A DNA stretch of 64,000 nt from Bacillota bacterium (GTDB lineage: Bacteria > Bacillota > Sulfobacillia > Fermentithermobacillales > Fermentithermobacillaceae), in NCBI GenBank assembly GCA_050952125.1, contig JBMNKK010000004.1, forward strand, positions 267,671 through 331,670, read 5' to 3'. Position numbers and translations under genes: made by a program. Of the stretch, positions 28,563 through 45,936 are shown piece after piece (position 1 is the stretch's first letter; each line of letters opens with the position of its first letter). Under the pieces are notes generated by a model. That model worked only from the letters and a program-made list of their open reading frames with translations. It did no database searches and was not told where the DNA came from.

Positions 28563-28676
<114 letters not shown>

Positions 28677-28739
28677 TTTTGTCCTTTCCACCCTCTTTGG
28701 GCGGACAACTTAAGAGAATTTGCGGAACTAACTTAAGCG

Positions 28740-31730
<2,991 letters not shown>

Positions 31731-31877
31731 AGGATTCTTCTTGAATCCTAAACTCGCGCTTGTTACTTCTCGCGACTTCTCTTAAGTTGTCAAGGACCAG
31801 TGATGGAGTCCTCTCCATCGTAGGACGTCAGTCCTCGAAGACCGAACAGCGTATTAGAGAACCTCAAGAGGTCTCCA

Positions 31878-33408
<1,531 letters not shown>

Positions 33409-33544
33409 CGTTACACCTTTTCCTCAAGGTCCGTAGAGTCGCTCGCGGTAACCGCGAGCCTTCTGGACTCAAAGGTTCTCTTACGCTGTTCAGTTTTCAA
33501 GGACCGACTTCCTTGGGCGCCCCCTCTCGCGGGGCGCAAGGGTT

Positions 33545-33628: not shown

Positions 33629-35125
33629 CTAGGTCTTAGGTCTCATCATGGGGAACAGGATGACGTCGCGGATTGACGGAGAATCGGTCAAAAACATGAC
33701 AAGCCTCTCGATTCCTATGCCCAAACCTCCCGCCGGCGGCATGCCGTACTCCAGCGCGGTGATGAAGTCTTCGTCGTAGGGATGAGCTTCGTCATTCCCC
33801 GCGGCCTTCTCTCTCGCCTGCTGAATAAAGCGGTTTTTCTGGTCAATGGGGTCGTTAAGCTCCGAAAACGCGTTCCCTAGTTCCCGGCCAAGTGCAAAAG
33901 CCTCAAACCTATAAGTGAGGTTGGGGTTGTCTTCCCTTCTCTTCGCGAGCGGCGATATCTCTACAGGATAATCTATCAGGAAATGGGGCTGAACAAGCTT
34001 AGGCTCGACGTACTCGCCCATGATTTCCTCAATTACGCTGCCCTTCGTCTTTGCTTTGTTCATATCCAGGCCGAGCCTTTCGGCAATAGCTACCGCGTCC
34101 TCGTCGGTCCGGATATCTTCCGGCTTGATCCCTGTCGCCTGCGTTATTCCATCCCAAACCCGGAGCCTTGGCCACGGAGGCGTAACGTCGATCTCGTAGC
34201 CGCCGGAAGTGAATCTCATAGACCCCAGAACCTCTTCCGCGCATCCCGACACCAGGTCCTCAACAAGTTTCATCATATCGTTGTAATCGGCGTAGGCTTG
34301 GTAGACCTCCATCATGTAGAACTCCGGATTGTGCCTGGTGTCGATGCCTTCGTTTCGAAAATCGGGACCTATCTCGTATACCCTCTCAAGGCCGCCGACA
34401 AGCAGGCGTTTGAGATACAGCTCGGTTGCGATCCTGAGATAGACATCAATATCCAAAGCATTGTGGTGAGTGATGAAAGGGCGGGCGTGAGCCCCGCCTG
34501 CTATCGTCTGCAGGACGGGCGTCTGGACCTCGATAAATCCCCTCTCATCTAGAAAGCGCCTTATATAGGAAATGATCTTGCTTCTCTTGATGAATGTGTC
34601 CTGCACTTCCGGATTCACTATCAGATCGAGGTACCGCTGCCGGTAGCGGAGATCTACATCGGTAAGGCCGTGCCACTTCTCAGGAAGCGGCCTGAGCGCC
34701 TTAGCGAGCATCGTCCAGTTGTGCACTTCGACCGTGGGCTCGCCTCTCTTGGTGCGGAAGACTGAGCCCTGAACTCCAACGAAATCTCCTAGATCGACCA
34801 AATCCTCAAACGACTTGTACTCTTCTTCTCCGAGGACGTCGATGCGCACGTGTAACTGAATGCGCCCGCTGCGGTCGCGGAGATCGCAGAAACAAGCTTT
34901 GCCGTGACCGCGTATGGCTGTGATCCTTCCGGCAATTCTGACTTCATACCCTGCCATCTCGTCACACTTTTCGGCGATAAGCGAAGCGTGTGAATCAACC
35001 TCATAGCGACCGCCAAACGGAGCGATGCCTTTCGCTTCTGCTTTGGCGATCTTGGCCCGCCTTCTCTCGAACTCCTCGTCGAGTCTTGAAACGGGCACGT
35101 CCCTCTCGCTCATATCGCCGGACAA
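33629..35125 (-). CDS. lysS: Lysine--tRNA ligase (class II)
   Basis: 498 aa with an N-terminal OB anticodon-binding domain and class II motifs (..FRNEG.., ..GGLGIGIERLVM..). TTG start with an AGGAGGT RBS 8 nt upstream. Confidence 0.9.
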   Translation of the reverse strand: MSGDMSERDVPVSRLDEEFERRRAKIAKAEAKGIAPFGGRYEVDSHASLIAEKCDEMAGYEVRIAGRITAIRGHGKACFCDLRDRSGRIQLHVRIDVLGEEEYKSFEDLVDLGDFVGVQGSVFRTKRGEPTVEVHNWTMLAKALRPLPEKWHGLTDVDLRYRQRYLDLIVNPEVQDTFIKRSKIISYIRRFLDERGFIEVQTPVLQTIAGGAHARPFITHHNALDIDVYLRIATELYLKRLLVGGLERVYEIGPDFRNEGIDTRHNPEFYMMEVYQAYADYNDMMKLVEDLVSGCAEEVLGSMRFTSGGYEIDVTPPWPRLRVWDGITQATGIKPEDIRTDEDAVAIAERLGLDMNKAKTKGSVIEEIMGEYVEPKLVQPHFLIDYPVEISPLAKRREDNPNLTYRFEAFALGRELGNAFSELNDPIDQKNRFIQQAREKAAGNDEAHPYDEDFITALEYGMPPAGGLGIGIERLVMFLTDSPSIRDVILFPMMRPKT

Positions 35126-35181: not shown

Positions 35182-35657
35182 CTACGCTGTGATAGACACC
35201 ACTTCGTACTGGAAGGTGCCCGCCGGAACCATCACCGAGATTACCGCACCCGGCTTCTGCCCCATAAGGGCTCTTCCCACCGGAGACTCCATGGATATCC
35301 GCTTCCTTGAGGGATCTGCCTCATGGGCTCCCACAATGGTGTACTCGCTCACCTGGTCTCTGGTGAGGTCTTTCACAGTGACCGTACAGCCAATCGAGAC
35401 AACCTTGGGGTTCTTCTGGCCTTCCTGAGCTACCTTAGCATGGCGGAGTATCTTCTCAAGGCTGAGGATACGTCCCTCGACGAAGGCTTGTTCGTTCTTA
35501 GCGTCTTCGTACTCGGCATTCTCAGAGAGGTCTCCGAATTCACGGGCTGCTTTGATTCTCTCGGCCACTTCTTTCCTTCTTACCAGCTTCAGATGTGCAA
35601 GTTCTTCCTCCAGGTTCTTCTTGCCCTCTGGAGAAAGCAGGATCTCGCGTTCTGCCA
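35182..35657 (-). CDS. greA: Transcription elongation factor GreA
   Basis: Track ORF 35182..35733. The start is re-assigned to the ATG with a GGGAGG RBS, giving MAEREILLSPEGKKNLEEELAHLKLVRRKEVAERIKAAREFGDLSENAEYEDAK..., the GreA coiled-coil plus FKBP-like domain (158 aa). Confidence 0.85.
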
Positions 35658-35695
35658 TCCTCCCGTTATCTCTGCCTTTCCTGGGGAATTTACGA

Positions 35696-35721: not shown

Positions 35722-36015
35722 AGATAAACGCATATCAGTGTATGTCTAGCTTAGTCCTGTCTATACCGAGCCCTTAAGATAGACAAAGACCGCTGCAAGG
35801 TCAGCTCCGCTGCAGTGGTCGTACCCGCCTCACGGCGACAGCATTATAATGCGGGGTGCAACTCCCAGTCAATACTACTTTGGCCAAGTCCGCGCCGCCG
35901 CGCAGGTCTATATTGCCCGCCCCGACCTCAAGTGATGTCCGAAGGCCGTCAGACACCACGTCCAGCAGGCAAAATCTGGCGCAACTCGCCCGGCAATGAT
36001 CAGCCAGAGAGCCCA

Positions 36016-37098
36016 CTAGGCGCTCCGCGCTCTACGCTTCCGGGCGTTCTCTTTGATCCTCTCTATCTCCGCTTCAGTGACCGGCCTTTCGAAACTCCGG
36101 AATCCCGCCACCTCGAAGCCGTGCTTTTTGGCGAGCTTGGCAATGCCTTTGATCCGGGATACGGGCATCTCACGCCCGAGACTCCAATCTGTGTAGTTCT
36201 CCTCAAGAGCAAGGATCATGGTCTCAGCCATACACGCGTAACTCGTTTTCTCCGGGAAGCCGAAATTGAAGTGGAAATCGACGTCTCCGGGAACCTTTAC
36301 TACTCCGCCTTCGATTATGAGCACATCATCGCGCTTCTTCTTCACTTCAACCGACACGTTTCTGGGACGCGAGACGTCGCACACCAGAGCGCCCGGCTTC
36401 AGGTCCTCGGGCTCAATGACCGCATCGATGGCAGAACTGACACATACAACCACGTCCGCCTCTTTGACGGCGCCGCGGAGATCCCTGGTTACCTTGGGCA
36501 CCATTCCAGTCTGCTCCACGATAACGTCGGCAACCTTCTCCAGGCGACCCATGTCTCTCGCACACAGGGTTAGATGCCGTCCCTCGTCAGCCATGATAAG
36601 GGAGACGGCTCTTCCGATAGCGCCGGATGCTCCGAGGACCAGGACGTTTGCTTTATCCATATCTATCTCCATCAGAGTCGCGGCCTTCTCTGTTGCTTCC
36701 ATCGCGGTGGCTACGGTATAGCTGTTCCCGGTAGTCACAGCGATGTCAACATTCTTGCGAATGGTTACGCCGGCATCGCCCACAACCGAAGTGAAGGCTC
36801 CCAGACCGACGACTCTTGCTCCGAGGTCGGCTGCCTTATTACACGCGTCGACTATCTTCGCGGTCACTTTCTCCAAAGGCAGTCCCAGCATGAGCCTGGG
36901 AACCAGCGGTACCGACACGAAATATCCGTTTGCTTCGGCGTATCTCGATTGAACGCCGGTAATGTGAGAGACCTTTATCGGAGGCATGAACGACATGACC
37001 GTCTCTACAAACCTGTCCGGCAAGTGCCTGGCTATGGGAAACTTCCTCGCCACGTCGCTTACGTCGATCGGATGGATGATGAAGCCAAAGGTACCCAA
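36016..37098 (-). CDS. NAD(P)-binding Rossmann-fold oxidoreductase related to the shikimate/quinate dehydrogenase superfamily (specific function unknown)
   Basis: 360 aa starting MGTFGFIIHPIDVSDV.. with a substrate-binding alpha/beta N-domain (..GLGAFTSVVGDAGV.., ..TTGNSYTVATAMEA..) and a dinucleotide motif VLVLGASGAIGRAV. Family assignment by eye only. Confidence 0.45.
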   Translation of the reverse strand: MGTFGFIIHPIDVSDVARKFPIARHLPDRFVETVMSFMPPIKVSHITGVQSRYAEANGYFVSVPLVPRLMLGLPLEKVTAKIVDACNKAADLGARVVGLGAFTSVVGDAGVTIRKNVDIAVTTGNSYTVATAMEATEKAATLMEIDMDKANVLVLGASGAIGRAVSLIMADEGRHLTLCARDMGRLEKVADVIVEQTGMVPKVTRDLRGAVKEADVVVCVSSAIDAVIEPEDLKPGALVCDVSRPRNVSVEVKKKRDDVLIIEGGVVKVPGDVDFHFNFGFPEKTSYACMAETMILALEENYTDWSLGREMPVSRIKGIAKLAKKHGFEVAGFRSFERPVTEAEIERIKENARKRRARSA

Positions 37099-37163
37099 CA
37101 GCGTCCCCTCCAGAAGGATGCATATGAAGCGTCAGTGCGGTTTAAGGATGAAGATATTCGGAT

Positions 37164-38093
37164 CTATGCCGGCACTAAGGGCGGCGGGTTCAACACCTCT
37201 ATCCTTGGCTTGAAGTTCAAGCGGTCGAGCATATCGTTGATCTCATCATCGGTGACGTCTTCAGGCTTCTTCCCGAGAAGACACACAATGAGACCTTCCA
37301 TAACGTTGGTGCCGAAAGACCGCCCCTCCATCTCGGGTGTTGTCGTGATGAGGGTGCTCACGCCGCGGGCCTTGAAATCTCTTATGTCGTCTTCTGTCAC
37401 GGTGTTCGTGATTATTGATTTGCCGGTCATGTCGTCAGGCATGTTCTTCGCTACATAGTGGAAATCGCCCGCTATGATGTCAGCTTCGTGATAGTAGCGA
37501 GCATACTTGGGATTTGCTTTCCGGTTTTCCTGCTTCTTGCCGGTAGGGTACAGCATTGTGAACGGAAGCCGTACCACGATAGGCGCTATCGTCCGGGCCA
37601 CTTTATCAAGGGCATCCAGAGAGCGAAGGGGAATGGGCAAGCCCAACGCGAAAATGAGGTCTCCCAATATGAGTTCGCAACCGGTCTCTCGCAGCGCTTC
37701 GGCCATGCCAAAACGGTCAGCCCCGCTAACCACAAGCACTTTCAGATCCTTGAACGGTACCTTGGCAGTATCATTGAGATACTTTATGACGCGACGCTCG
37801 AGAGTTCCCTTGAGCCTGCTTCCGTCGACGATGGGGGTCTTCTTTGCTGCCCTGGCTATCGGGAGCGCGTCCTTCAGCATGTACTTGGACCTGCCGCACG
37901 CAATCCAAAGGTCAATACCGCCCATGCCGAAAGCGTCTACCTTCCCGTCCAACTCGCGAATAAGCTCGATGGCTCGCGGAATGGACCCGTCGGTGCCGAT
38001 CCTCTCGACCAGTACTTGCTCGCCGAGGAACTCGCTTTCCGTCTTCTTGTTTCGTTTGGACGAACCAAGGCTCACACTGACTACGTGCTTCAT
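37164..38093 (-). CDS. Conserved hypothetical alpha/beta protein (MKHVVSVSLGSSKRNKK.. family), function unknown
   Basis: 309 aa with no TM segments. Motifs ..ERIGTDGS.., ..DGKVDAFGMGGIDLW.. and ..KKTPIVDGSRLK.. suggest a small-molecule-binding or isomerase-like fold. It is co-directional with, and 60 nt downstream of, the oxidoreductase gene. Confidence 0.4.
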   Translation of the reverse strand: MKHVVSVSLGSSKRNKKTESEFLGEQVLVERIGTDGSIPRAIELIRELDGKVDAFGMGGIDLWIACGRSKYMLKDALPIARAAKKTPIVDGSRLKGTLERRVIKYLNDTAKVPFKDLKVLVVSGADRFGMAEALRETGCELILGDLIFALGLPIPLRSLDALDKVARTIAPIVVRLPFTMLYPTGKKQENRKANPKYARYYHEADIIAGDFHYVAKNMPDDMTGKSIITNTVTEDDIRDFKARGVSTLITTTPEMEGRSFGTNVMEGLIVCLLGKKPEDVTDDEINDMLDRLNFKPRIEVLNPPPLVPA

Positions 38094-38105
38094 ATGTAAG
38101 ACCTC

Positions 38106-38636
38106 CTAGCCCTTCACGCTCTTAATTACTTTTCGAAGCGATTCAGGGTTCAGATAGACATCGCCTGACATCGGCGAACGCCCGATAACAATGGTGGCTA
38201 CGTCGGTATTTCTGTCAACCAAGTTCTTCAGGATGTCCAGCCGCTTGTCGGACCCTACAAAAATGACCTTGTCAAACCTCCGGATTTGAGCCATCAGACT
38301 CATGAGGTCATTGAGAACGTCGATTCCGCTCCGGTCGCGGACGAACGCCCAGCGTTCCTCGTCGGTCATGACCAAAGTGAAGTCAACGCCTTCCGCCTGA
38401 GCTACCTCTCTCACTTCATCGCAGTTTGAAATAGGGAAGCCGACCAGGGCTATTGAACCGCCCTTCCGCAGTTCTCCCAGGGTCTCGAGTCTCGAGATGA
38501 AGGTCCTGTCCAAGCCCATTTCCTGAGCGACGTCGGCTTGGGACTGGCCTTTGGCACGGCGGGCAAGTATGGCGTCAACCGCTTCGTCTATCTTCTGGCG
38601 ACTTATGACTTTGTCCCCGATCCTCACGAATTCCAC
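38106..38636 (-). CDS. Putative HTH transcriptional regulator with C-terminal DRTGG-like domain
   Basis: 176 aa with a predicted HTH (GQSQADVAQEMGLDRTFISRLE). The C-terminal ~110 aa (..VIFVGSDKRLDILKNLVDRNTDVATIVIGRSP..) resembles a DRTGG-type domain. It is the first gene of the three-gene operon. Confidence 0.4.
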   Translation of the reverse strand: MEFVRIGDKVISRQKIDEAVDAILARRAKGQSQADVAQEMGLDRTFISRLETLGELRKGGSIALVGFPISNCDEVREVAQAEGVDFTLVMTDEERWAFVRDRSGIDVLNDLMSLMAQIRRFDKVIFVGSDKRLDILKNLVDRNTDVATIVIGRSPMSGDVYLNPESLRKVIKSVKG

Positions 38637-38722
38637 GGGGCCACCACCTTGTGCACAACTCTGTGTACATCATAGCAAGGCGGTTCTTTGCGCGCAAGAG
38701 AAACCGGACAGGTGAGGTGGAC

Positions 38723-39691
38723 TTAAGCGAAAGGAGACAGAGGGAAACGCCTGAGCACGGATCGAAGCTTATCGTTGTCGGGCACCGAGTCATCGTGCAT
38801 CATGCCCTTCTTCAGCCCCTGCAAAGTGCGAGCGCCGCGCCTTGTGGTGAGCTCAAGGTCACGGGTGACTCTGGATAGCGCCGAAAGCCTGGCATCTTCT
38901 AGCGATTGGGTGAAACTCGCCCCCTTGGCAAGGTTCCTCCGGAGGCCATCAGCCAAGTAGAAGTGTGCCAGCCCGGTAAGAGGGTTGCCGCAAGCGCCCG
39001 TCGCGGTGACTCCGAATACCTCCGGCATCTTCAGCCGGTAGCCGATCTCCAAAGACGCTTTGAGGTCTTCCGTCTCATCTCTCACGCACTCTCGAAGAGT
39101 CTTGGGAGTGACCATGGCGTACTGAGACAGCGACCGGATAATCGCGTGCTCAATCGTGTGCGCCTCCTCCGCGTCGACCAGATCGCCCAGATTGCCCGAC
39201 AGCACAACCTCCTCGCCGCCGTGAGAAATGCCGTAGATGCTGACGCGTATGTCATGGCGCCCGCGAGCCTCGGTACTGCCTTGTAGAGCTCGCCACCCCG
39301 CCCCGTCGATTACCGGATAGGTGCTCCGGAGCTCGGCTAAGTCGATTACCTCCGGATTGGCCGCGAACAGGATCCCGTCCGCCGAGTGAAAGCCCCCTGC
39401 CTTCACCGTCGCTTTGCCGGTTACGCGCGCGAACAGCGCCTCGATGACTTTGAGTGACGGCGCCGCGATAACCTGTTGGGCCCACGACTCCTCAATGGCA
39501 ACCGCCGTCCCGACCGGGTAGAGTCCGGTGCTGCCCGAGAAAGGCAGAAGGAGCACCGGCGAACCGCGCCTTGCCCGGAACACGCGCTTCGTCCAGCTGT
39601 CGAGAAAGACGCCGGTTATCTCGCCGCCAACCCTCGGCATGGCGCCGTTCGCGACGGGAAGAACCGGGATGCTCATTCGATCTGCCGCCAC
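38723..39691 (-). CDS. Hypothetical protein (322 aa), possible Lon-N-like substrate-binding fold
   Basis: No TM segments and no recognisable catalytic motifs. The N-terminus ..IPVLPVANGAMPRVGGEITGVFLDSWTKRV.. loosely resembles Lon N-terminal domains. It overlaps the dusB start by 19 nt, so is co-transcribed with it. Confidence 0.35.
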   Translation of the reverse strand: MAADRMSIPVLPVANGAMPRVGGEITGVFLDSWTKRVFRARRGSPVLLLPFSGSTGLYPVGTAVAIEESWAQQVIAAPSLKVIEALFARVTGKATVKAGGFHSADGILFAANPEVIDLAELRSTYPVIDGAGWRALQGSTEARGRHDIRVSIYGISHGGEEVVLSGNLGDLVDAEEAHTIEHAIIRSLSQYAMVTPKTLRECVRDETEDLKASLEIGYRLKMPEVFGVTATGACGNPLTGLAHFYLADGLRRNLAKGASFTQSLEDARLSALSRVTRDLELTTRRGARTLQGLKKGMMHDDSVPDNDKLRSVLRRFPLSPFA

Positions 39692-40653
39692 CCTTCCTCA
39701 AGAAGCTCGATGACCTTCTCAATTGACTTCTCATTCACAACCATTTCTCTTAGCCTGGTTGCCCCTCTCAGCCCGCGAAAGTAGAACACCAACTGCTTCC
39801 GCATCTCCAGGAGTCCCTTCCTCTCCCCGTATCTTTGGATGGAACGCCAGAAATGCTCCCTTGCCAGAGCCATCTTCATCTCGGCGGTGTGAACGCCAAC
39901 TTCTTTGCCGTTCAGGAGAGCCGAGAGGTTGTCGAAGAAGAGGGGGTTGCCGAGAAGGGCCCGGCCCACCATAACCCCGGACACGCGCCCGGCCTCAAGC
40001 CTCATGACTGCTTCAGAAGCCGTGAGGATGTCGCCGTTACCAACAACCGGTACGCCAACGTCAGCCGCTACAGCCTCGATGACGCCCCAATCGGCCTTTC
40101 CGGAATACCCCTGGGACACGGTGCGTCCGTGCACAACCAACATATCGATCCCCGCGTCGACAAGAGCCCTCGCAAACTCTAGGGCTCCACTCGAGTCCGA
40201 CCAACCTGTGCGGATCTTGGCGGTAACGGGAAGGCGAGAGACGCTTTTGACGGCTTGGACGATGTCTCGGGCCAAAGATACGTTATTCAGAAGCGCTCCG
40301 CCGCTTCCTTGCGAGGTGATCTTTCTGGCAGGGCATCCCATGTTAATGTCTATAGCCTCAAATTTATGGCAAAGGCTCTGAACCAGTTCAGCAGCCTTTG
40401 CCATCGATTCGGCCTCGTAACCGAAAAGCTGGATCGCGAGCGGGCGGTCGTGCATCTCGTGATACAGGATCTCCTCTGAGTTGTCGCCGCCGTGCAAGAG
40501 CCCTTTCGCGCTCACCATCTCGGTCACGCAGTAAGGGCACCCGTGTTCGCGGAGTATCTCACGGTAGACATCCCCGGTGTATCCCGCCATAGGAGCGCTC
40601 ATGACAGGAGGCCATATTGAGAGACTGCCGATCTTAAGCGGAGATATCGTCAT
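39673..40653 (-). CDS. dusB: tRNA-dihydrouridine synthase DusB
   Basis: 326 aa FMN TIM-barrel protein with the catalytic Cys motif ..DINMGCPARKI.. and ..VTAKIRTGW... It is upstream of the greA-lysS region as in Bacillus. Confidence 0.85.
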   Translation of the reverse strand: MTISPLKIGSLSIWPPVMSAPMAGYTGDVYREILREHGCPYCVTEMVSAKGLLHGGDNSEEILYHEMHDRPLAIQLFGYEAESMAKAAELVQSLCHKFEAIDINMGCPARKITSQGSGGALLNNVSLARDIVQAVKSVSRLPVTAKIRTGWSDSSGALEFARALVDAGIDMLVVHGRTVSQGYSGKADWGVIEAVAADVGVPVVGNGDILTASEAVMRLEAGRVSGVMVGRALLGNPLFFDNLSALLNGKEVGVHTAEMKMALAREHFWRSIQRYGERKGLLEMRKQLVFYFRGLRGATRLREMVVNEKSIEKVIELLEEGWRQIE

Positions 40654-40670: not shown

Positions 40671-41087
40671 CTATTGCACCTCAGTGTCTCTGGCGGGAAT
40701 CCCCGCCTCGACCATTACGCTGTCAGCCACATAGATGGGGGCTGACGCCCTGAGAGCCACCGCTATGGCATCTGATGGGCGGCAGTCGAGCTCAATCTGC
40801 TTGCCCCCTTGTTCGAGAACAAGCGAGGCATAGAACACCTCATCCTTAAGCTCGGTGAGTATTGTCATGACAACACTGGCGTTCAGTTTTTCCACACAGG
40901 ATACCAGAAGATCGGCCGTCACCGGACGCGGCGGCGTCAGGTCCTGGAGCGGAAAGGCGATGACTGAGGCCTCATGAGTCCTCACCCATATCGGGAGAAT
41001 TGTGGACTTGGGGAGGTCTGCCAGGAGCAAGACCGCGTGGTCGCTTTCATTGTCCAGTCCGACGCGCTCCACGGTGACTTGAATCAA
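40671..41087 (-). CDS. Bifunctional nuclease-family protein (BFN/DUF151 domain)
   Basis: 138 aa. ..HAVLLLADLPKSTILPIWVRTHEASVIAF..PPRPVTADLL.. matches the DUF151 consensus (VVLLKE..LPIWIG..EA.AI...PRPLTHDL) from memory. Confidence 0.6.
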   Translation of the reverse strand: MIQVTVERVGLDNESDHAVLLLADLPKSTILPIWVRTHEASVIAFPLQDLTPPRPVTADLLVSCVEKLNASVVMTILTELKDEVFYASLVLEQGGKQIELDCRPSDAIAVALRASAPIYVADSVMVEAGIPARDTEVQ

Positions 41088-41099
41088 CGCGATCCCTCC

Positions 41100-42479
41100 T
41101 CAATCCCATTCTATGGCTCCGACCACTGAGTAACTACCCAATACATTCTCAATCGCCCGCTTAATGCTCTTCAATCCTTCGTCAGTACGCGATTCCGCCC
41201 GTAGCACCAATGCGGGTTGAGTGTTTGACGCCCGGAGGAGTCCCCATCCGTCCGGAAACAGAACTCTGGCGCCGTCGACCGTGATGACCTCATTGGTGCC
41301 TTGAAACACCTTCGTAAACTCCTCAACAATCCTGAACTTCTCCTCGTCCGGACAGTGAACCCTGATCTCGGGAGTCGACTTGTAGGCGGGAGCGTCTTCC
41401 AACATACGCGCCAGATCGTCATCCGAGTTTGTCAGTATGCGAAGGAGCCTGGCAGCAGCGTAAAGCGCGTCATCATAGCCATAGTGCTCGTCTCTGAAAA
41501 ACATGTGGCCGGACATCTCGCCGGTAAAGAGAGCCCCGGTCTCCTTCATCCGCGCCTTTATGAGAGAATGTCCGGTCCTGGTGAACTCCGGCTTTCCTCC
41601 CATGGCGCGCACGGCGTCCACAAGACTCTGTGAGCATTTCACCTCGATGAGTGCCAGAGCACCGGGATTCCTTTTCAGTATCTCCTGCCAAAACACGATC
41701 TGGAGCCGGTCGCCCCAGACCGGATTTCCATCTTTGCCGACAACGCCAATCCGGTCGGCATCTCCGTCGAAAGCTATGCCGACATCGGCGTCAGTTTCCT
41801 TCATCTTAGCTGCTAAAGCCCGTATGTTGTCCTTCTGCGTCGGATCGGGGTGGTGATTCGGAAAAGTGCCGTCAGGCTCGAAAAACATTTCTATGAAATC
41901 GGCACCGAGCCTTTGGAGCACCCTGCGGGCTACGGGCCCGGCAGCTCCGTTTCCGGCATCAACAACGGCGCGTATTTTGCGAGGGCCGAGCTTGATCCTC
42001 TTCGCGAAGTCATCTACGTAAGCATCAACGGGGTCGTCTACGGTGACCTTGCCGCTTCCCCATACGAACTCACCCGACTCAGCTATGCGGCGTATCTCTT
42101 GAATCCCTTCTCCGTACAGAGTGTCAGGCCCGTAGGCCAGTTTGAAACCGTTGAACTCAGGAGGATTATGGCTGCCGGTAACCATGACTCCGCCCTCAAC
42201 AGCGTAGTGGATGCGCGAAAAATACAGGACCGGCGTGGTGACCATTCCTACATCGACTACGTCGACTCCCGTCTCGAGGAGGGCGTCGATGAAAGCCTGG
42301 GAGTAAGCGTACGAGGACAGACGGCAATCGCGCCCCACAACGGCCCTGCTCAAGTTGTTTCTCTTAAGAAAAGTACCGTAGGCAAGTCCAAGAGTCCTAA
42401 CGGTGCCGAGAGTTAGGTCCTCGCCTACAAGGCCGCGCACGTCGTACTCACGGAATATCCTGGGGTTTATGTTGGCCAC
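41100..42479 (-). CDS. Phosphomannomutase/phosphoglucomutase (alpha-D-phosphohexomutase family)
   Basis: 459 aa with the active-site Ser loop TGSHNPPEFNG, the metal-binding DGDADR motif and a sugar-binding loop. The TGSHNP form favours PMM/PGM rather than GlmM. Confidence 0.8.
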   Translation of the reverse strand: MANINPRIFREYDVRGLVGEDLTLGTVRTLGLAYGTFLKRNNLSRAVVGRDCRLSSYAYSQAFIDALLETGVDVVDVGMVTTPVLYFSRIHYAVEGGVMVTGSHNPPEFNGFKLAYGPDTLYGEGIQEIRRIAESGEFVWGSGKVTVDDPVDAYVDDFAKRIKLGPRKIRAVVDAGNGAAGPVARRVLQRLGADFIEMFFEPDGTFPNHHPDPTQKDNIRALAAKMKETDADVGIAFDGDADRIGVVGKDGNPVWGDRLQIVFWQEILKRNPGALALIEVKCSQSLVDAVRAMGGKPEFTRTGHSLIKARMKETGALFTGEMSGHMFFRDEHYGYDDALYAAARLLRILTNSDDDLARMLEDAPAYKSTPEIRVHCPDEEKFRIVEEFTKVFQGTNEVITVDGARVLFPDGWGLLRASNTQPALVLRAESRTDEGLKSIKRAIENVLGSYSVVGAIEWD

Positions 42480-42595
42480 CGTCTCATCCCTCCCTGCAAC
42501 CTTACATTCTACCCAGGGAGATCATTTCCTTTACGAGACTACCGTTCCTACAGCATGGGCACAATTATGGGCGGAACGCAAAGGGGGTGAGGCGC

Positions 42596-42853
42596 ATGAC
42601 TGACGTCAAGTGCAAAGTGCAATCCTGCCACTACTGGGGACACGGGGACGTATGTGAGGCCAACAGCATCATGGTCGACAACAACAAGAGGCTATCTTCG
42701 TTCGGAAAGATGGAGACGGGCTCCCTGGATATTACCGACAACACCGGAAGATCATCGTCAAACTCAGGCGAAACCGGGGGGAACCATGCTCACCGGTCAG
42801 AAGAGACCCTGTGCAAGACCTTCCGCCCCAAAGATACGAAGACCGGCGGCTAA
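42596..42853 (+). CDS. DUF1540-like small Cys-rich protein
   Basis: The start is re-assigned to the ATG with an AGGGGGTGAGG RBS, giving MTDVKCKVQSCHYWGHGDVCEANSIMVDNNKRLSSFGKMETGS... The VKCxVxxCxYW..C.A..I pattern is recalled as the DUF1540 signature, followed by a low-complexity S/G/T-rich tail. Confidence 0.5.
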   Translation: MTDVKCKVQSCHYWGHGDVCEANSIMVDNNKRLSSFGKMETGSLDITDNTGRSSSNSGETGGNHAHRSEETLCKTFRPKDTKTGG

Positions 42854-43047
42854 ACGTGTCTGGGAACAAGATCGCTGATTGAGGGGCGTTTTGGAGCGCC
42901 CCTCTTCCCTCTTTGATGCCGTGAGCTGACCGTGCACCCCGAGGAACCGGATAACCCCATATTGTGCTGAGCAGCCCTACTCCTCACGCTCGCCCCAGTG
43001 TGTATATGTTTTCTGACAACGGTATATATAAGCAGGATTCCGGCTCT

Positions 43048-43851
43048 ATGCAGCGAATTCAATATCTTCGAAAGGGGGTGAAAGCATTGTTTACAGACGG
43101 ACGAGCGTTTGATTTTCTCACTCTCCTCGTTGCAACGGGCCTCATGGGAATCTTCATGTACTTGGCCAGGACGGGCCTGAAAGTCAAAATCCGGCCCATA
43201 GCCGGGTTCGCAGCCATCGACGAAGCGGTAGGGCGAGCAGCTGAAATGGGCAAGCCAGTCCACTTCACGCCCGGTTTCGGCGGGTTGGTCGCGGCAACCT
43301 TCGCAGGACTCGAGGTATTGGGCTACGTCGCGAGACTGGCGGCCCAATATGATGTCCGGTTGGTCGTCACGGTATCCCAGGCAGAGACTTTCGCAGTCAC
43401 CGAGCAGGTAATGAGGCAGGCCTACCTTGAGGCGGGTAAACCCGACTCGTTCAAACCCGAGGATTGCCGCTTCATCTCCACCGACCAGTGGGCCTACGCC
43501 AGCGGCGTCATCGGCGTGCTCTACAGGGAGAAGGTAGCCTCCAACATCATGATCGGGCAGTTCGCGGCCGAAGCCCTCATCCTCGCTGAGGCGGGCAACA
43601 CCGTCGGCGCCATTCAGATCGCCGGTACCACCAACGCCTATCAGATCCCGTTCTTCGTTGTAGCCTGCGACTACGTCATCCTCGGAGACGAGATGTTCGC
43701 TGCAGGAGCCCACTTCACCAACAACAAGACACACTTGGGCAGCCTCCGCGGAGAAGACCTGGTCAAGGCCATCTGCCTCGCCATCATGGTCATCGGGGCA
43801 CTTGTTACAACGGCAGGTTCTGACGCGTTCAAAACTCTGATGAGCAAGTAA
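43048..43851 (+). CDS. Bitopic membrane protein with ~200-aa extracytoplasmic domain (module A1), function unknown
   Basis: Track ORF 42964..43851; the likely start is the ATG at 43048 (MQRIQYLRKG..) or the downstream TTG. It has an N-terminal TM (FLTLLVATGLMGIFMYLA), a soluble middle region and a C-terminal TM (LVKAICLAIMVIGALVTTAG). The stop is coupled (5 nt) to the next gene. Confidence 0.55.
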   Translation: MQRIQYLRKGVKALFTDGRAFDFLTLLVATGLMGIFMYLARTGLKVKIRPIAGFAAIDEAVGRAAEMGKPVHFTPGFGGLVAATFAGLEVLGYVARLAAQYDVRLVVTVSQAETFAVTEQVMRQAYLEAGKPDSFKPEDCRFISTDQWAYASGVIGVLYREKVASNIMIGQFAAEALILAEAGNTVGAIQIAGTTNAYQIPFFVVACDYVILGDEMFAAGAHFTNNKTHLGSLRGEDLVKAICLAIMVIGALVTTAGSDAFKTLMSK

Positions 43852-43855
43852 GGAG

Positions 43856-44485
43856 GTGAAGAGCATGTTCTTGAAAAGGACAGCCCCCGCTATCATCGCG
43901 TGCGTATGCGGCGTATCCGTCGTTATCGCATATTTCTTCAAGATCGCTCCGGTGCAGACATTTGCAACACATGTCCTTAAGTGGCAGTCGGTCATCGCAG
44001 TTTTTGCACTGGGGCTCGGCGGAGTCAACATTGTGAGACTCCACGGCAAGAACGTCCAGAGGGATCCCTCGAACTTCTACAGCATAGCGCTGCTTCTTAC
44101 CTTCGGCATAACGATCATCGTCGGACTGGCCTTAGGTCAGACCTCCGGTGCATACACATTCATATTCGACTACATTAACGTACCCACGGGCAGCGCGATT
44201 TTCTCGCTTCTGGCGTTCTACATCGGAACTGCAGCCTACAGGGCGTTCAGGGCTAAGAACGCCGAAGCAGCCATCCTGCTGCTCACAGGCTGCATCGTTA
44301 TGCTTGGGCGAGTGCCGATAGGCGCCAAGATATTGCCCTTCACCGCGCCGGCCACGGACTGGATCATGTCAGTCCTTAACGTGGGCGGACAGAGAGGAGT
44401 CATGATTGCCGGCGCAATCGGCTTCATCGCAGTGTCACTCAGGATCATAGTAGGACTCGAGCGCCGCGCCTACGGCGGCGAATAA
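43856..44485 (+). CDS. Polytopic membrane protein (~5-6 TM, module A2), function unknown
   Basis: 209 aa with hydrophobic segments throughout and no recognised transporter motifs. It is translationally coupled to its neighbours. Confidence 0.6.
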   Translation: MKSMFLKRTAPAIIACVCGVSVVIAYFFKIAPVQTFATHVLKWQSVIAVFALGLGGVNIVRLHGKNVQRDPSNFYSIALLLTFGITIIVGLALGQTSGAYTFIFDYINVPTGSAIFSLLAFYIGTAAYRAFRAKNAEAAILLLTGCIVMLGRVPIGAKILPFTAPATDWIMSVLNVGGQRGVMIAGAIGFIAVSLRIIVGLERRAYGGE

Positions 44486-44497
44486 GGGGGGAGATAG

Positions 44498-45343
44498 ATG
44501 AACGTTTTTGAGACTCTGCAGAACATCGACAAACGTGTGTTCTATCTCCTCATGGCTCTAGCCATCGCGGTCCCCACGATAAGCCCGATTGGACTCGCGG
44601 TAGATGTTACTCCCGCCGTACAGAAGGCCTTCGACTTCGTCGCGAGCCTTCCCAACGGGTCACGTGCGGTTATCGGGTTCGACTACGAGCCGGGCGACGA
44701 GATAGACCTGAACCCTCAGGCCAAGGCAATTCTCCATCAATTGGCCTCGAAGAATGTAAAGGTTGTGGCGATAGCATCCTTCCCTGCAGGCGCGATGTTC
44801 GCCGAGCAGTGCTTGGAGATCCTCGCCGAGTACGGCTATGAATACGGCAAGGACTACGTGAACTTGGGTCACTATGCAGGAGCCGAGGCGACGCTGGCTG
44901 CTTTCGCCAACAGCCCGAGCGCCATCTACTCCAAGGACTGGAGGGGCAACGACCTCAGCTCTCTGCCTCTCATGCAAGAGGTCAAGAGTATGAAGGACTT
45001 TTCCATGGCCATGACGCTGAACGACGGTCCTACCGGGGGGACGGGCACACACGCGTGGGTTAACCAGGCAGTAATGGCTCACGGTGTACCGCTGATTATG
45101 GGTGTAACCGGAGTCTTGGCGGCCTCAAACGAAACCTACGTGCAGTCCGGCCAGTGCAAAGGGATCCTGGCGGGACTTCGGGCCGCAGCCGAATACGAGA
45201 AACTCGTGGACAAGAAGGGTGATGGAACCGTCGGTATGGACGCACAGTCCATGGCCCACCTTCTTATCGTCATCTTCGTGGTTATGGGAAACGCGGCCAT
45301 GTTCCTCGCCAAGAACACCTCCAAGGGGGGTGCAGCTAGATGA
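44498..45343 (+). CDS. Bitopic membrane protein with ~200-aa extracytoplasmic domain (module B1; same architecture as 43048..43851)
   Basis: 281 aa with an N-terminal TM (VFYLLMALAIAVPTISPIGLAV), a soluble domain and a C-terminal TM (MAHLLIVIFVVMGNAAMFLA). The architecture duplicates module A1. Confidence 0.6.
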   Translation: MNVFETLQNIDKRVFYLLMALAIAVPTISPIGLAVDVTPAVQKAFDFVASLPNGSRAVIGFDYEPGDEIDLNPQAKAILHQLASKNVKVVAIASFPAGAMFAEQCLEILAEYGYEYGKDYVNLGHYAGAEATLAAFANSPSAIYSKDWRGNDLSSLPLMQEVKSMKDFSMAMTLNDGPTGGTGTHAWVNQAVMAHGVPLIMGVTGVLAASNETYVQSGQCKGILAGLRAAAEYEKLVDKKGDGTVGMDAQSMAHLLIVIFVVMGNAAMFLAKNTSKGGAAR

Positions 45344-45936
45344 AGATCTCCGGAGATATCGGGGTCTGGGTTGGAGCCATTGCCGCGCTGGCGATCTACT
45401 CCGTGCTGGTAAAGGACAACCCCTTCTACCGCCTGGTGGAGCACATCTTTGTCGGGGCCTCGGCAGGTATAGCGATAGTGACAGGGGTCCAGACATTCAA
45501 GAGCACCGCATGGGCTCCGATGGTTGAGGGCCAGGCCATTCTGATTGTCCCCATGCTCCTCGGCCTGCTCCTGTACGCGAGATATATACCTTCGATATCG
45601 CACTTGAACCGCATCCCGCTGTCGCTACTGATGGGGGCTGGCGCAGGCGTCGCCATGCGCGGAGCAGTCGAGAGCCAGATAGTAGGACAGCTACAGGCTA
45701 CGATGATCAAGCTCAACTCGTTTGACGCGCTGGTCATTTTCCTAGGTTCGCTCTTTTCACTGAGCTACTTCTTCCTAACGTACAAGCTTGACGGCGCTGC
45801 AGGATGGGCACCCAAACTGGGACGCTACTTCATGATGGCGGCGTTCGGCGCTGCTTTCGGAAACACTGTTATGGGAAGGGTATCGGCCGCCATCGGCCGC
45901 TTCCAGTTCATATTCCTGGAGTGGCTGGGCCTATAG
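45340..45936 (+). CDS. Polytopic membrane protein (~5-6 TM, module B2; same architecture as 43856..44485)
   Basis: 198 aa with an ATGA start/stop overlap with the preceding gene. Its size and TM layout are similar to module A2. Confidence 0.6.
   Translation: MKISGDIGVWVGAIAALAIYSVLVKDNPFYRLVEHIFVGASAGIAIVTGVQTFKSTAWAPMVEGQAILIVPMLLGLLLYARYIPSISHLNRIPLSLLMGAGAGVAMRGAVESQIVGQLQATMIKLNSFDALVIFLGSLFSLSYFFLTYKLDGAAGWAPKLGRYFMMAAFGAAFGNTVMGRVSAAIGRFQFIFLEWLGL

What the first reader, a model, noticed from the sequence alone, without database searches (positions are those of the whole stretch)
36016..39691. Lineage-specific operon (HTH-DRTGG-like regulator, unknown alpha/beta protein, shikimate-DH-superfamily oxidoreductase) plus a 322-aa hypothetical inserted between greA and dusB
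In Bacillus-type synteny dusB lies close to lysS/greA. Here about 3.7 kb of uncharacterised genes intervene. Three genes form a tight co-directional cluster. The first encodes an HTH regulator with a C-terminal ligand-binding-like domain. The second is a 309-aa soluble protein with a distinctive N-terminus, MKHVVSVSLGSSKRNKK. The third is a 360-aa Rossmann oxidoreductase beginning MGTFGFIIHPIDVSDV with a GASGAIG dinucleotide motif. A fourth protein of 322 aa overlaps dusB. The combination suggests a small-molecule conversion pathway (quinate/shikimate-like or amino-acid-derived) with a dedicated regulator. I could not assign it to a known pathway.
Basis: partly seen in the sequence, partly recalled or inferred. 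Interest (0 to 1): 0.6.

Follow-up and report, generated by a model that had tools for sequence, protein, structure and literature searches.

The report
Conserved fatty-acid regulator and reductase operon
This is an old, widely conserved three-gene operon of anaerobic Firmicutes, not a lineage-specific shikimate-type insertion: it encodes a self-regulating DNA-binding protein whose binding site also sits on fatty-acid-synthesis promoters, an acyl-thioester reductase, and a re-tooled relative of that reductase, none of which has been studied.

Summary
The four ORFs are real, all on the minus strand. The interpretation mostly fails.

- **Position.** The block sits between dusB and greA in Thermoanaerobacterales, Moorella, Syntrophomonadaceae, Halanaerobiales, Negativicutes, Limnochordia and Symbiobacteriaceae. 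It is ancestral, not inserted.
- **360-aa protein.** It is not AroE-like. It belongs to the acyl-ACP-reductase / PigE-N / TamH-TR thioester-reductase family, with GASGAIG and the catalytic Cys (C288 = AAR C294).
- **309-aa protein.** It belongs to a large family with no Pfam or NCBIfam model. Its predicted fold is closest to AAR, but it lacks the Cys and has a degenerate nucleotide loop. It is fused to the reductase in other bacteria.
- **176-aa protein.** It is an Xre-type HTH with an unclassified C-domain; no DRTGG domain was found.
- **New: operator.** A 20-bp dyad operator (TGTACACAGAGTTGTGCACA, 38650-38669) overlaps the promoter of the 176-aa gene. It is present in 58 of 63 relatives with the HTH gene and 0 of 16 without it.
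- **New: fab link.** The same operator sits just after the -10 box of fabH-fabK-fabD-fabG-acpP-fabF operons in three independent lineages.
- **317-aa gene.** It belongs with dusB, not with the trio.

Best reading: an autoregulated lipid-regulon module. The enzymes' product is unknown.

The parts
38692..38697 (-). -35 hexamer (TTGCGC) of the trio's own promoter
   Evidence: Read from the sequence. It lies 17 nt upstream of TATGAT, in the 86-nt gap between the unk317 stop and the HTH176 start. Relatives show the same promoter-then-operator layout.
38669..38674 (-). -10 hexamer (TATGAT) of the trio's promoter
   Evidence: Relatives have TATAAT-, TAGAAT- or TAAAAT-like boxes at the equivalent place, directly before the operator.
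38650..38669 (-). 20-bp dyad operator TGTACACAGAGTTGTGCACA (two copies of the palindromic octamer TGTGCACA, 12 bp apart); predicted binding site of HTH176
   Evidence: It is the only match in the 64-kb window, even with 3 mismatches allowed. The consensus aTGtaCACAAaatTGTGCACA is found upstream of HTH176 in relatives. It is present with <=2 mismatches in 58 of 63 loci with HTH176 and 0 of 16 without. There is no covariation that would indicate an RNA hairpin. The same site sits on fabH promoters.
38106..38636 (-). HTH176: Xre-type helix-turn-helix protein with an unclassified alpha/beta C-terminal domain; predicted autorepressor and fab-operon repressor
   Evidence: HTH_3 is detected in 24 of 24 family members, and the C-domain has no Pfam match. 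The best solved relative by profile is 8hnp, an archaeal transcription regulator, at E=3e-4. Presence of the gene matches presence of the operator.
37164..38093 (-). unk309: member of a large uncharacterised family that NCBI names 'quinate 5-dehydrogenase'; AAR-like two-domain fold without the catalytic Cys and with a degenerate Gly-rich loop (SGADRFG)
   Evidence: No Pfam, NCBIfam or PDB sequence match. At least 7995 90%-identity clusters and 1279 50%-identity clusters. 72 invariant residues in 35 sequences. AF2 pLDDT 88.6. Best Foldseek PDB hit is AAR 6jzq, TM about 0.5. Collinear but non-significant hhalign alignment to the reductase. Natural fusions to the reductase and to an aminotransferase.
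36016..37098 (-). AAR/PigE-N/TamH-TR-family NAD(P)H-dependent thioester reductase (360 aa): GASGAIG at 156-162, catalytic Cys288 in YACMAETM
   Evidence: NCBIfam PigE 7.6e-60 and AcACP_reductase 1.8e-36. PDB 4ppm 7.5e-33 and 6jzq 2.1e-27, with C288 aligned to AAR C294. Both motifs are kept in about 52 of 60 syntenic homologues.
38723..39676 (-). unk317: Lon-N-terminal/PUA-like domain plus a helical domain with invariant H173-x-x-E176-H177 ... C229-G-N; translationally coupled to dusB; not part of the trio
   Evidence: Only 166 homologues, with no Pfam match. AF2 pLDDT 91.8. Foldseek hits the Lon N-domain 2ane at TMt 0.73. Invariant residues are listed. It is always directly after dusB and is separated from the trio in L017, L022, L028 and L030-32.
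35843..35872 (-). greA's own promoter (TTGACT-18-TATAAT), marking the downstream end of the trio's transcription unit
   Evidence: An 11-of-12 consensus match, the best in the 10-kb scan. It lies in the 357-nt gap after the reductase gene.

Best explanation
HTH176-unk309-reductase is one transcription unit with its own promoter.

**Regulator (inferred).** HTH176 is a repressor. It binds as a dimer or tetramer to a 20-bp dyad operator that overlaps the -10/start region of its own promoter. In relatives the same operator sits on the promoter of the type-II fatty-acid-synthesis operon fabH-fabK-fabD-fabG-acpP-fabF. HTH176 would then be a functional analogue, not a homologue, of FapR or FabT, and the trio would belong to the membrane-lipid regulon.

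**Reductase (inferred from family).** The 360-aa enzyme takes an acyl chain from a 4'-phosphopantetheine thioester, most likely acyl-ACP, onto Cys288. It then reduces the acyl-enzyme with NAD(P)H and releases an aldehyde, as AAR, PigE-N and TamH-TR do.

**unk309 (partly shown, partly inferred).** It is a distant paralogue with the same fold that has lost the Cys and the canonical dinucleotide loop, but it keeps a dense set of invariant polar residues in the inter-domain cleft. It works physically with the reductase, because the two are fused in other bacteria. Its role is probably to deliver the substrate or process the aldehyde.

**Variant in some relatives (shown).** The reductase is fused to a class-III aminotransferase, so the end product there is an amine.

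**Shown:** family membership and catalytic motifs, co-conservation, fusions, the operator and its distribution.
**Inferred:** who binds the operator, repression, the substrate, the role of unk309, and the physiological product.
For: **Reductase**
- NCBIfam and PDB matches, with C288 aligned to AAR C294 and GxxGxxG present.
- Both motifs are conserved in syntenic orthologues.
- The family mechanism and the use of 4'-PP-bound acyl chains are described in PMC9594044, PMC8341465 and bioRxiv 10.1101/2024.10.28.620694.

**Pairing of unk309 with the reductase**
- They are adjacent in 55 of 76 loci.
- Single-chain unk309-reductase fusions exist: P0262, P0287, P0351 and P0374.
- Aminotransferase-reductase fusions lie directly after unk309 in L041, L069 and L073.
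- P0307 is an alpha-oxoamine-synthase-type aminotransferase fused to unk309.
- AAR is the best structural match of unk309, and the motif alignment is collinear.

**Regulator and operator**
- The operator is unique in the window.
- In 808 kb of relatives' DNA it occurs only at HTH176 promoters, plus one fab promoter.
- It is present in 58 of 63 loci with HTH176 and 0 of 16 without.
- It always lies at or just after the -10 box.

**Lipid link**
- In L067 the fab operon is directly upstream of the trio and carries a second operator.
- Two further fabH promoters, from lineages with 67-72% FabH identity to L067, carry it at the same place, as the only site in 15-21 kb each.
Against: - The fab link rests on three lineages, chosen through FabH similarity to L067. 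HTH176 was not shown to be present in the L214 and L216 genomes. The fab promoter of the window's own organism could not be reached.
- The reductase scores far below the NCBIfam equivalog cut-offs (126 vs 449.7 for AAR), so the substrate cannot be transferred from AAR.
- unk309 occurs without HTH176 (16 loci) or without the reductase, and divergent members sit in unrelated contexts.
- In some lineages the reductase-slot protein has lost its Cys, so aldehyde formation cannot be the universal role of the pair.
- The unk309-reductase sequence similarity is not significant on its own (hhalign P=0.027).
- No paper on any of the three families was found.
Confidence: 0.55

Rival explanations
1. One reading: a quinate/shikimate-like or amino-acid-derived small-molecule pathway, with an AroE-type dehydrogenase and a DRTGG-type ligand-sensing regulator, acquired as a lineage-specific insertion.
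For: Pfam Shikimate_DH (PF01488) hits the Rossmann domain at 9.9e-10. NCBI names the 309-aa family 'quinate 5-dehydrogenase'.
Against: - PF01488 is only the NAD(P)-binding domain, which glutamyl-tRNA reductase shares, and no Shikimate_dh_N domain is present.
- The full-length matches are to AAR and PigE-N, with the thioester-forming Cys conserved.
- The 309-aa family matches no curated model.
- No DRTGG domain was found.
- The position is conserved across Bacillota classes, with no insertion signature.
Confidence: 0.03
2. unk309 is a housekeeping enzyme with a function of its own, unrelated to lipids (for example cofactor or RNA metabolism, like its neighbours dusB, coaX, lysS and greA). The reductase and HTH176 are later, dispensable additions. 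The fab operators then reflect a broader or different regulon.
For: unk309 is the only universal member. It stands alone or without partners in many loci. Divergent members lie next to tlyA/efp or yjbQ/thiL-like genes. Its sequence is extremely conserved, with 72 invariant residues. Cys-less proteins occupy the reductase slot in some lineages.
Against: There are four independent unk309-reductase fusions and one aminotransferase-unk309 fusion. Spacers are tight (12 nt and 65 nt) or the genes overlap. The fold is closest to AAR. The operon is controlled by the same operator as the fab genes.
Confidence: 0.2
3. A HemA/HemL-like logic: the Cys/NAD(P)H enzyme reduces an aminoacyl-tRNA ester (for example Lys-tRNA, given the lysS neighbour) or another non-lipid activated acid to an amino-aldehyde, which is transaminated in the fusion variants.
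For: The hemA model hits the protein at 2.8e-8 through the shared Rossmann domain. Class-III aminotransferase fusions resemble the HemA-HemL pairing. lysS lies downstream in 61 of 82 loci.
Against: The full-length similarity is to AAR, PigE-N and TamH-TR, which act on 4'-PP thioesters. greA, with its own promoter, separates the trio from lysS. The operator links the trio to fab genes, not to translation genes.
Confidence: 0.05
4. The conserved 20-nt element acts as an RNA hairpin in the 5' leader, or is bound by another factor that regulates both the fab genes and this operon. HTH176 would then have a different target.
For: The element can be drawn as an 8-bp stem, with 85% of cells paired. 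It lies between the -10 box and the Shine-Dalgarno sequence, so it is probably transcribed in part.
Against: Covariation does not exceed the shuffles (75-93 of 500), and two stem positions are unpaired in 11 and 21 of 35 sequences. The right half is an invariant perfect palindrome, as expected for a protein-binding DNA site. Presence of the element tracks presence of HTH176 exactly: 58 of 63 versus 0 of 16.
Confidence: 0.1

Closest known systems
Cyanobacterial acyl-ACP reductase (AAR; PDB 6jzq/6jzy)
   Same: Same two-domain fold family. GxxGxxG nucleotide loop. The catalytic Cys aligns (window C288 = AAR C294). Full-length alignment at 2.1e-27. The expected ping-pong acyl-enzyme mechanism is described.
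   Different: The score is far below the equivalog cut-off (126 vs 449.7 bits). There is no aldehyde-deformylating oxygenase partner. The partner is instead a Cys-less paralogue (unk309). The host is an anaerobic Bacillota organism, and the gene sits in a housekeeping locus under an HTH repressor.
Thioester-reductase domains of PigE (prodigiosin, PDB 4ppm) and TamH (tambjamine)
   Same: This is the best sequence match: PigE model 7.6e-60 and 4ppm 7.5e-33. Relatives in L041, L069 and L073 have the TamH architecture, a class-III aminotransferase followed by the reductase (PMC9594044).
   Different: In the window the reductase stands alone. No pigment gene cluster, ANL-ACP loader or ThDP enzyme lies nearby. 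It is conserved as a core-genome locus rather than a secondary-metabolite cluster.
FapR (fapR-plsX-fabD-fabG-acpA operon of Bacillus) and FabT (own knowledge; FabT also in PMC9083066)
   Same: The predicted logic is the same: an autoregulated repressor whose operator sits on fab-operon promoters, co-transcribed with an acyl-ACP-using enzyme.
   Different: There is no homology. HTH176 has an Xre-type HTH plus an unclassified alpha/beta domain, not DeoR plus hot-dog (FapR) or MarR (FabT). The operator is TGTGCACA-N4-TGTGCACA. The effector is unknown. unk309 shows no similarity to PlsX. Binding and repression have not been tested.
Terminal amidation domain (TAD) of the carmabin NRPS (PDB 9e4u)
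   Same: It is another AAR-fold branch with an invariant Cys and bound NAD. It appears among the structural matches of unk309 and the sequence matches of the reductase (paper).
   Different: TAD is an NRPS-embedded domain. unk309 has no Cys at the equivalent position.
Lon protease N-terminal (PUA-like) domain; LuxS-type HxxEH...C metal site (for the 317-aa gene)
   Same: The N-domain fold matches Lon-N: 2ane at TMt 0.73, E=2e-6. The C-domain has invariant H-x-x-E-H and C-G-N residues, reminiscent of the LuxS metal ligands (the resemblance is from my own knowledge).
   Different: There is no AAA+ or protease domain. Profile comparison with E. coli LuxS was negative, and there is no Pfam match. 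The LuxS resemblance is therefore only a lead.

Membership tests
AAR / PigE-N / TamH-TR thioester reductases (360-aa protein) | Full-length sequence similarity to family members with solved structures | tested here: met
   4ppm at 7.5e-33 (residues 39-346) and 6jzq at 2.1e-27 (residues 12-330). NCBIfam PigE 7.6e-60 and AcACP_reductase 1.8e-36.
AAR / PigE-N / TamH-TR thioester reductases (360-aa protein) | Catalytic cysteine that forms the acyl-enzyme (AAR C294) | tested here: met
   C288 in YACMAETM aligns with C294 in FACFAEAM. It is conserved in about 52 of 60 syntenic homologues.
AAR / PigE-N / TamH-TR thioester reductases (360-aa protein) | GxxGxxG NAD(P)H-binding loop | tested here: met
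   G156-A-S-G-A-I-G162. The loop is GA[TS]G[SA]IG in orthologues.
Cyanobacterial AAR proper (equivalog TIGR04058) | Score above the curated equivalog cut-off, and an adjacent aldehyde-deformylating oxygenase | tested here: not met
   126.2 bits against a cut-off of 449.7. The neighbours are unk309 and greA, and no ADO-like gene is present.
AAR / PigE-N / TamH-TR thioester reductases (360-aa protein) | NAD(P)H-dependent reduction of an acyl-4'-phosphopantetheine thioester to an aldehyde | not testable with these tools
   This needs an enzyme assay.
Shikimate/quinate dehydrogenase (AroE/YdiB) | N-terminal shikimate-binding domain (Shikimate_dh_N) together with the NADP domain | tested here: not met
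   Only PF01488 (the NAD(P) domain) is hit in the 360-aa protein. The 309-aa protein has no Pfam or NCBIfam hit at all.
AAR-fold superfamily (309-aa protein) | Two-domain AAR-like fold | tested here: inconclusive
AAR-fold superfamily (309-aa protein) | Catalytic Cys and GxxGxxG loop | tested here: not met
   There is no invariant Cys among 35 sequences. The loop is S-G-A-D-R-F-G, with invariant D126 and R127.
Xre-type HTH transcription factors (176-aa protein) | HTH_3/HTH_31 helix-turn-helix domain | tested here: met
   HTH_3 is found in 24 of 24 members, best E=6.5e-7. PDB profile hits are Xre-family and controller proteins.
DRTGG-domain regulators (176-aa protein) | DRTGG domain | tested here: not met
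   No DRTGG hit in any of 24 members at E<=10.
Fatty-acid-synthesis repressors (functional class: FapR, FabT) | Operator on fab-operon promoters and on its own promoter | tested here: met
   Own promoter: 58 of 63 loci. fabH promoters: L067, L214/L215 and L216-L220, which is 3 of 3 lineages examined, each with a single site directly after the -10 box. This was not tested in the window's own genome.
Fatty-acid-synthesis repressors (functional class: FapR, FabT) | Direct binding of the protein to the operator, and release by a lipid-pathway effector (malonyl-CoA or acyl-ACP) | not testable with these tools
   This needs EMSA or footprinting and effector titration.
PlsX phosphate acyltransferase (309-aa protein, by analogy with fapR-plsX) | Sequence homology to PlsX | tested here: not met
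   hhalign of A1 against E. coli PlsX gave probability 0.2. There is no FA_synthesis Pfam hit.
LuxS/MPP-like metallohydrolases (317-aa protein) | HxxEH...C metal site within a LuxS-like fold | tested here: inconclusive
   The motif residues are invariant. hhalign against E. coli LuxS was negative, Pfam gave nothing, and the Foldseek list is dominated by the N-domain.

The most novel reading that the evidence does not exclude
HTH176 defines a previously unrecognised family of global membrane-lipid-synthesis repressors in anaerobic Bacillota whose fab operons lack fapR. Its operon partners, a canonical AAR-type reductase and a Cys-less paralogue that form one enzyme, divert acyl-ACP into fatty aldehydes, or into amines where an aminotransferase is fused. 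This would be a phylum-wide, so far unnoticed branch of lipid metabolism. It might supply ether-lipid or alcohol precursors, or generate the effector that the repressor senses.
Probability: 0.3. Interest if true: 0.8.

Novelty: new variant of a known kind. Interest (0 to 1): 0.66.

Why it matters
**Fatty-acid-synthesis regulation.** Control of fatty-acid synthesis is understood for Bacilli (FapR), streptococci and enterococci (FabT) and proteobacteria (FabR/FadR). I found no description of it for the many anaerobic Bacillota lineages seen here: Moorella, Thermoanaerobacter, Tepidanaerobacter, syntrophs and Negativicutes. A defined candidate regulator with a precise 20-bp operator makes that question directly testable.

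**AAR-type enzymes outside known settings.** AAR-type aldehyde-forming reductases are regarded as cyanobacterial alkane enzymes or pigment-pathway domains. Finding one as a core-genome gene across an anaerobic phylum implies an unknown use of fatty aldehydes. It is always paired with, and sometimes fused to, an uncharacterised paralogue from a family of more than 1000 50%-identity clusters with no Pfam model. That family is also a sizeable gap in annotation, currently mislabelled 'quinate 5-dehydrogenase'. AAR-family enzymes are also of biotechnological interest for fatty aldehyde, alcohol and amine production.

Tried and rejected
- **Shikimate/quinate assignment.** Rejected.
- **DRTGG domain in HTH176.** Not found.
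- **Mobile or defence island.** No PADLOC hit, no flanking repeats and no GC shift.
- **Known RNA element in the region.** Rfam found only rRNA and tRNA in the window.
- **RNA-hairpin reading of the operator.** No covariation.
- **unk309 as a PlsX homologue.** Negative.
- **unk309 sequence relatives in the PDB.** None, with either the single sequence or the profile.
- **unk317 C-domain as LuxS.** The motif is present, but hhalign and Pfam were negative. It is kept only as a lead.
- **The 71-aa ORF (35801-36016) called by some pipelines.** It is not conserved even in 84%-identical relatives, and it contains the greA promoter, so it is spurious.
- **Metagenome-wide scan for TGTGCACANNNNNGTGCACA.** It returned 120 loci, almost all chance matches from unrelated environments, with 2 HTH176 promoters and no fab site.
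- **Literature searches.** Searches for the gene names, AAR homologues in Firmicutes and the operator sequence found nothing relevant.
- **Paralogues in the window.** No other copies of the four families were found.

Full report
**What is in the sequence.** All genes between 33.6 and 42.5 kb lie on the minus strand. In transcription order they are:

| Gene | Coordinates | Size |
|---|---|---|
| phosphoglucomutase | 41100-42479 | |
| bifunctional-nuclease-domain protein | 40671-41087 | |
| dusB | 39673-40653 | |
| unk317 | 38723-39676 | 317 aa |
| HTH176 | 38106-38636 | 176 aa |
| unk309 | 37164-38093 | 309 aa |
| reductase | 36016-37098 | 360 aa |
| greA | 35182-35658 | |
| lysS | 33629-35125 | |
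| rRNA operon | downstream of lysS | |

- The fourth ORF most likely starts at the ATG at 39676, not the GTG at 39691. Gene callers and the homologue alignment agree. Its start overlaps the dusB stop as ATGA.
- Spacers are 86 nt (unk317 to HTH176), 12 nt (HTH176 to unk309), 65 nt (unk309 to reductase) and 357 nt (reductase to greA).
- The 357-nt gap holds the best sigma-70-type promoter match of the region, which serves greA.
- A 71-aa ORF called there by some pipelines is not conserved and is spurious.

**Not a lineage-specific insertion.**
- Among the 82 best non-self loci, greA follows in 65, dusB precedes in 49, and both flank the block in 39. Many contigs end early.
- The loci come from Candidatus Fermentithermobacillaceae (the window's closest relatives, 72-85% identity), Thermoanaerobacter, Neomoorella, Tepidanaerobacter, Thermosediminibacterales, Syntrophomonadaceae, Syntrophaceticus, Thermacetogenium, Caloramator, Alkaliphilus, Tissierellales, Halanaerobiales, Limnochordia, Symbiobacteriaceae and Thermaerobacter, plus a Negativicutes MAG.
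- GC content is flat, no flanking repeats are present, and there are no defence-system hits.
- The arrangement is therefore ancestral in Bacillota, and the Bacillus-type dusB-lysS adjacency is the derived state.

**The 360-aa protein.**
- Pfam sees only the NAD(P)-binding domain PF01488.
- NCBIfam matches the N-terminal half of PigE (7.6e-60, model positions 2-361) and cyanobacterial acyl-ACP reductase (1.8e-36).
- The best solved relatives are PigE 4ppm (7.5e-33) and AAR 6jzq (2.1e-27).
- In the residue-by-residue alignment, window C288 (YACMAETM) pairs with AAR C294. That cysteine carries the acyl-enzyme intermediate (mechanism as summarised in PMC9594044, and in the TAD preprint).
- GASGAIG (156-162) is the GxxGxxG loop.
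- Both motifs are kept in about 52 of 60 homologues that occupy the same slot.
- The protein is a member of the AAR/PigE-N/TamH-TR thioester-reductase family, but not an orthologue of AAR itself (126 bits against a 449.7-bit cut-off). It is not an AroE-type enzyme.

**The 309-aa protein.**
- It has no Pfam, NCBIfam or PDB sequence match, even with a profile.
- The family is nonetheless large: at least 7995 90%-identity clusters and 1279 50%-identity clusters at E<=1e-3.
- It is very conserved, with 72 invariant positions among 35 sequences that go down to 59% identity.
- NCBI's name for it, 'quinate 5-dehydrogenase', has no support here.
- The AlphaFold model is confident (pLDDT 88.6).
- Its best Foldseek matches in the PDB are AAR chains (TM 0.45-0.52). 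The AAR-like TAD domain, amino-acid dehydrogenases, malic enzymes and periplasmic sugar-binding proteins follow.
- A profile-profile alignment with the reductase family is not significant on its own (P=0.027), but it is collinear over 243 columns. It pairs these motifs:

| unk309 | Reductase |
|---|---|
| KVDAFG | KIvGLG |
| PIVDGS | VTTGNS |
| VLVVSGADRFG | VlVlGASGAIG |
| FGTN-VMEGL | YACMAETM |

- I read unk309 as a distant paralogue with the same fold. It has lost the Cys and changed the dinucleotide loop (invariant D126-R127 where the second Gly would be). It still keeps a dense polar cleft: S6, S8, S11, S12, R14, T34, D35, D61, D90, K95, E99, D145, Y182, T184, Q188, D210, N230, T231, T250-252, R258, S259, T262, N263 and E266.

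**The two enzymes belong together.**
- The reductase directly follows unk309 in 55 of 76 loci with room.
- Among the best 150 representatives of the unk309 family, four are single chains in which a complete unk309 domain is followed by a complete reductase domain with the Cys motif: P0262, P0287, P0351 and P0374. They come from quite different bacteria. One lies next to TonB/ExbBD genes and one next to phasin genes.
- In L041, L069 and L073 the gene after unk309 encodes a class-III aminotransferase fused to the reductase. This is the architecture of TamH, which turns carrier-bound fatty acyl chains into amines.
- P0307 is an alpha-oxoamine-synthase-type aminotransferase fused to unk309.
- Every fusion partner is an enzyme that consumes an acyl thioester.
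- Against a strict pairing:
  - unk309 is the only universal member.
  - Some lineages go straight from unk309 to greA.
  - Some slot occupants have lost the Cys (L019, L020, L039, L052, L066, L076).
  - Divergent unk309 members sit in unrelated contexts.

**The regulator and its operator (new).**
- HTH176 has an Xre-type HTH in all 24 members tested and a C-terminal alpha/beta domain with no family match. No DRTGG domain was found.
- The best solved relative by profile is an archaeal regulator, 8hnp, at E=3e-4.
- Reading the DNA upstream of the gene in 63 relatives revealed a strongly conserved element, aTGtaCACA-AaaT-TGTGCACA. It consists of two copies of the palindromic octamer TGTGCACA, 12 bp apart. 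The right copy is invariant.
- In the window it is TGTACACAGAGTTGTGCACA at 38650-38669. It starts at the last base of a TTGCGC-17-TATGAT promoter and ends 13 nt before the GTG start.
- It is the only match in 64 kb, even with three mismatches allowed.
- In 808 kb of relatives' DNA, every match with up to two mismatches lies at an HTH176 promoter, except one.
- The element is present in 58 of 63 loci that have HTH176 and in 0 of 16 that lack it, where the best matches have 5-7 mismatches.
- An RNA-hairpin reading is not favoured. Covariation does not exceed shuffled controls, and two stem positions are unpaired in a third to over half of the sequences.
- The simplest reading is autorepression by HTH176 through promoter occlusion.

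**The link to fatty-acid synthesis (new).**
- The one exceptional site, L067:237-256 (TGTGCACAAAATCGTGCACA), lies just after a TTGACA-17-TAATAAT promoter. It is directly upstream of fabH-fabK-fabD-fabG-acpP-fabF. In that genome the fab operon abuts HTH176-unk309-reductase.
- To test whether this was an accident, I took FabH homologues of L067 and fetched two further lineages: L214/L215 (72% identity) and L216-L220 (67% identity).
- Both have fab operons that start with fabH, with no fapR or plsX in front.
- Both carry the operator 4-5 nt after the -10 box: TTGACA-17-TATAAT-tagc-TTGTGCACGAAAATGTGCACA, and TTGACA-18-TATAGT-aaca-GTGTGCACAAAATGTGCACA.
- In each case it is the only site in 15-21 kb.
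- So three of the three fab promoters examined share the operator and its position with the HTH176 promoters.
- I infer that HTH176 is a repressor of type-II fatty-acid synthesis in these bacteria. It would be analogous to FapR, whose operon likewise carries an acyl-ACP-using enzyme (plsX), but unrelated in sequence and operator.
- Caveats:
  - The three lineages are related to one another through the way they were chosen.
  - HTH176 was not verified in the L214 and L216 genomes.
  - The window organism's own fab promoter could not be reached.
  - A blind metagenome pattern scan was uninformative.
- I found no paper that mentions the operator sequence together with fatty-acid synthesis.

**The 317-aa gene.**
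- Its family is small, with 166 hits and no Pfam match.
- The AlphaFold model is confident (pLDDT 91.8).
- Its N-terminal half matches the Lon N-terminal/PUA-like domain: 2ane at TMt 0.73.
- The C-terminal helical half carries invariant H173-T-x-E176-H177, C229-G-N and H294-D-D residues. These resemble a LuxS-type metal site, but profile comparison with LuxS was negative.
- The gene always follows dusB directly. In several relatives it is separated from the trio by unrelated genes, such as a GFO/IDH/MocA-type oxidoreductase or SbcCD-like genes.
- It should be read together with dusB, not with the trio.

**Mechanism proposed.**
- *Shown:* family membership and catalytic residues of the reductase; fusions and synteny that link it to unk309; the operator, its exclusive association with HTH176, and its presence on fab promoters.
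- *Inferred:*
  - HTH176 binds the operator and represses its own operon and the fab genes.
  - The reductase transfers an acyl group from acyl-ACP to C288 and reduces it with NAD(P)H to an aldehyde.
  - unk309 docks on the reductase and hands over the substrate or takes the aldehyde.
  - An amine is the product where an aminotransferase is fused.
- The physiological product and the effector of HTH176 are unknown.

**Verdict.** What is there is a widely conserved, uncharacterised, autoregulated operon tied to the fatty-acid-synthesis regulon. It consists of a new family of candidate FASII repressors, a core-genome AAR-type thioester reductase in anaerobes, and a large unmodelled paralogue family. 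Each component is of a known kind, but the combination and its regulatory link appear to be undescribed, and every step is directly testable.

Noticed in passing
L041:6979-9501, L069:6818-9553, L073:6931-9678: In three relatives, including a Symbiobacteriaceae MAG, the gene after unk309 is an 840-915-aa fusion of a class-III aminotransferase and the AAR-like reductase (TamH architecture). It is under the same HTH176 and operator. This implies an amine end product there.
   Followed up: partly
L019:2686-3762, L020:7149-8213, L039:7052-8113, L052:3689-4606, L076:6940-7869, L066:6921-8024: In Syntrophomonadaceae and some other lineages, the slot after unk309 holds divergent AAR-like proteins that have lost the catalytic Cys and often the Gly-rich loop. 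They may be pseudoenzymes retained at the locus.
   Followed up: partly
P0307 (L087:1364-3652): A 762-aa protein from a high-GC metagenome contig fuses an alpha-oxoamine-synthase-type (BioF/SPT-like) PLP enzyme to a complete unk309 domain. This is another link between unk309 and acyl-thioester chemistry.
   Followed up: partly
L090:170-3735: An unk309-reductase fusion gene is followed by two phasin / PHA-granule-associated genes in a metagenome contig.
   Followed up: no
window 38723-39676: unk317 combines a Lon-N/PUA-like domain with a helical domain bearing invariant HxxEH, CGN and HDD motifs. It is translationally coupled to dusB in every locus where it occurs. It may be a metal-dependent partner of tRNA dihydrouridine synthase.
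   Followed up: partly
window 35801-36016 (minus): A 71-aa ORF is called as a gene in public assemblies of this genome. It overlaps the reductase stop and contains the greA promoter. It has no conservation in 84%-identical relatives, so it is likely a spurious call.
   Followed up: yes
window 28563-33414 (minus): A complete 16S-23S-5S rRNA operon lies directly downstream of lysS.
   Followed up: no
window 42587-45936 (plus): A divergently oriented block encodes a DUF1540 protein, a DUF6754 membrane protein and three further proteins of 206-281 aa without Pfam matches. It lies between the phosphoglucomutase gene and coaX.
   Followed up: no
L038, L042, L216-L220: In Thermoanaerobacter HTH176 promoters and in the L216-type fabH promoter, the two operator octamers are separated by 3 nt instead of 4 (TGTGCACAAAATGTGCACA). 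This suggests some tolerance in half-site spacing.
   Followed up: no
L093:5612-9521: A divergent unk309 member overlaps a yjbQ-family gene upstream. It is followed by an AIRS/ThiL-like ATP-binding protein and a carboxyltransferase, which is a different context from the trio.
   Followed up: no
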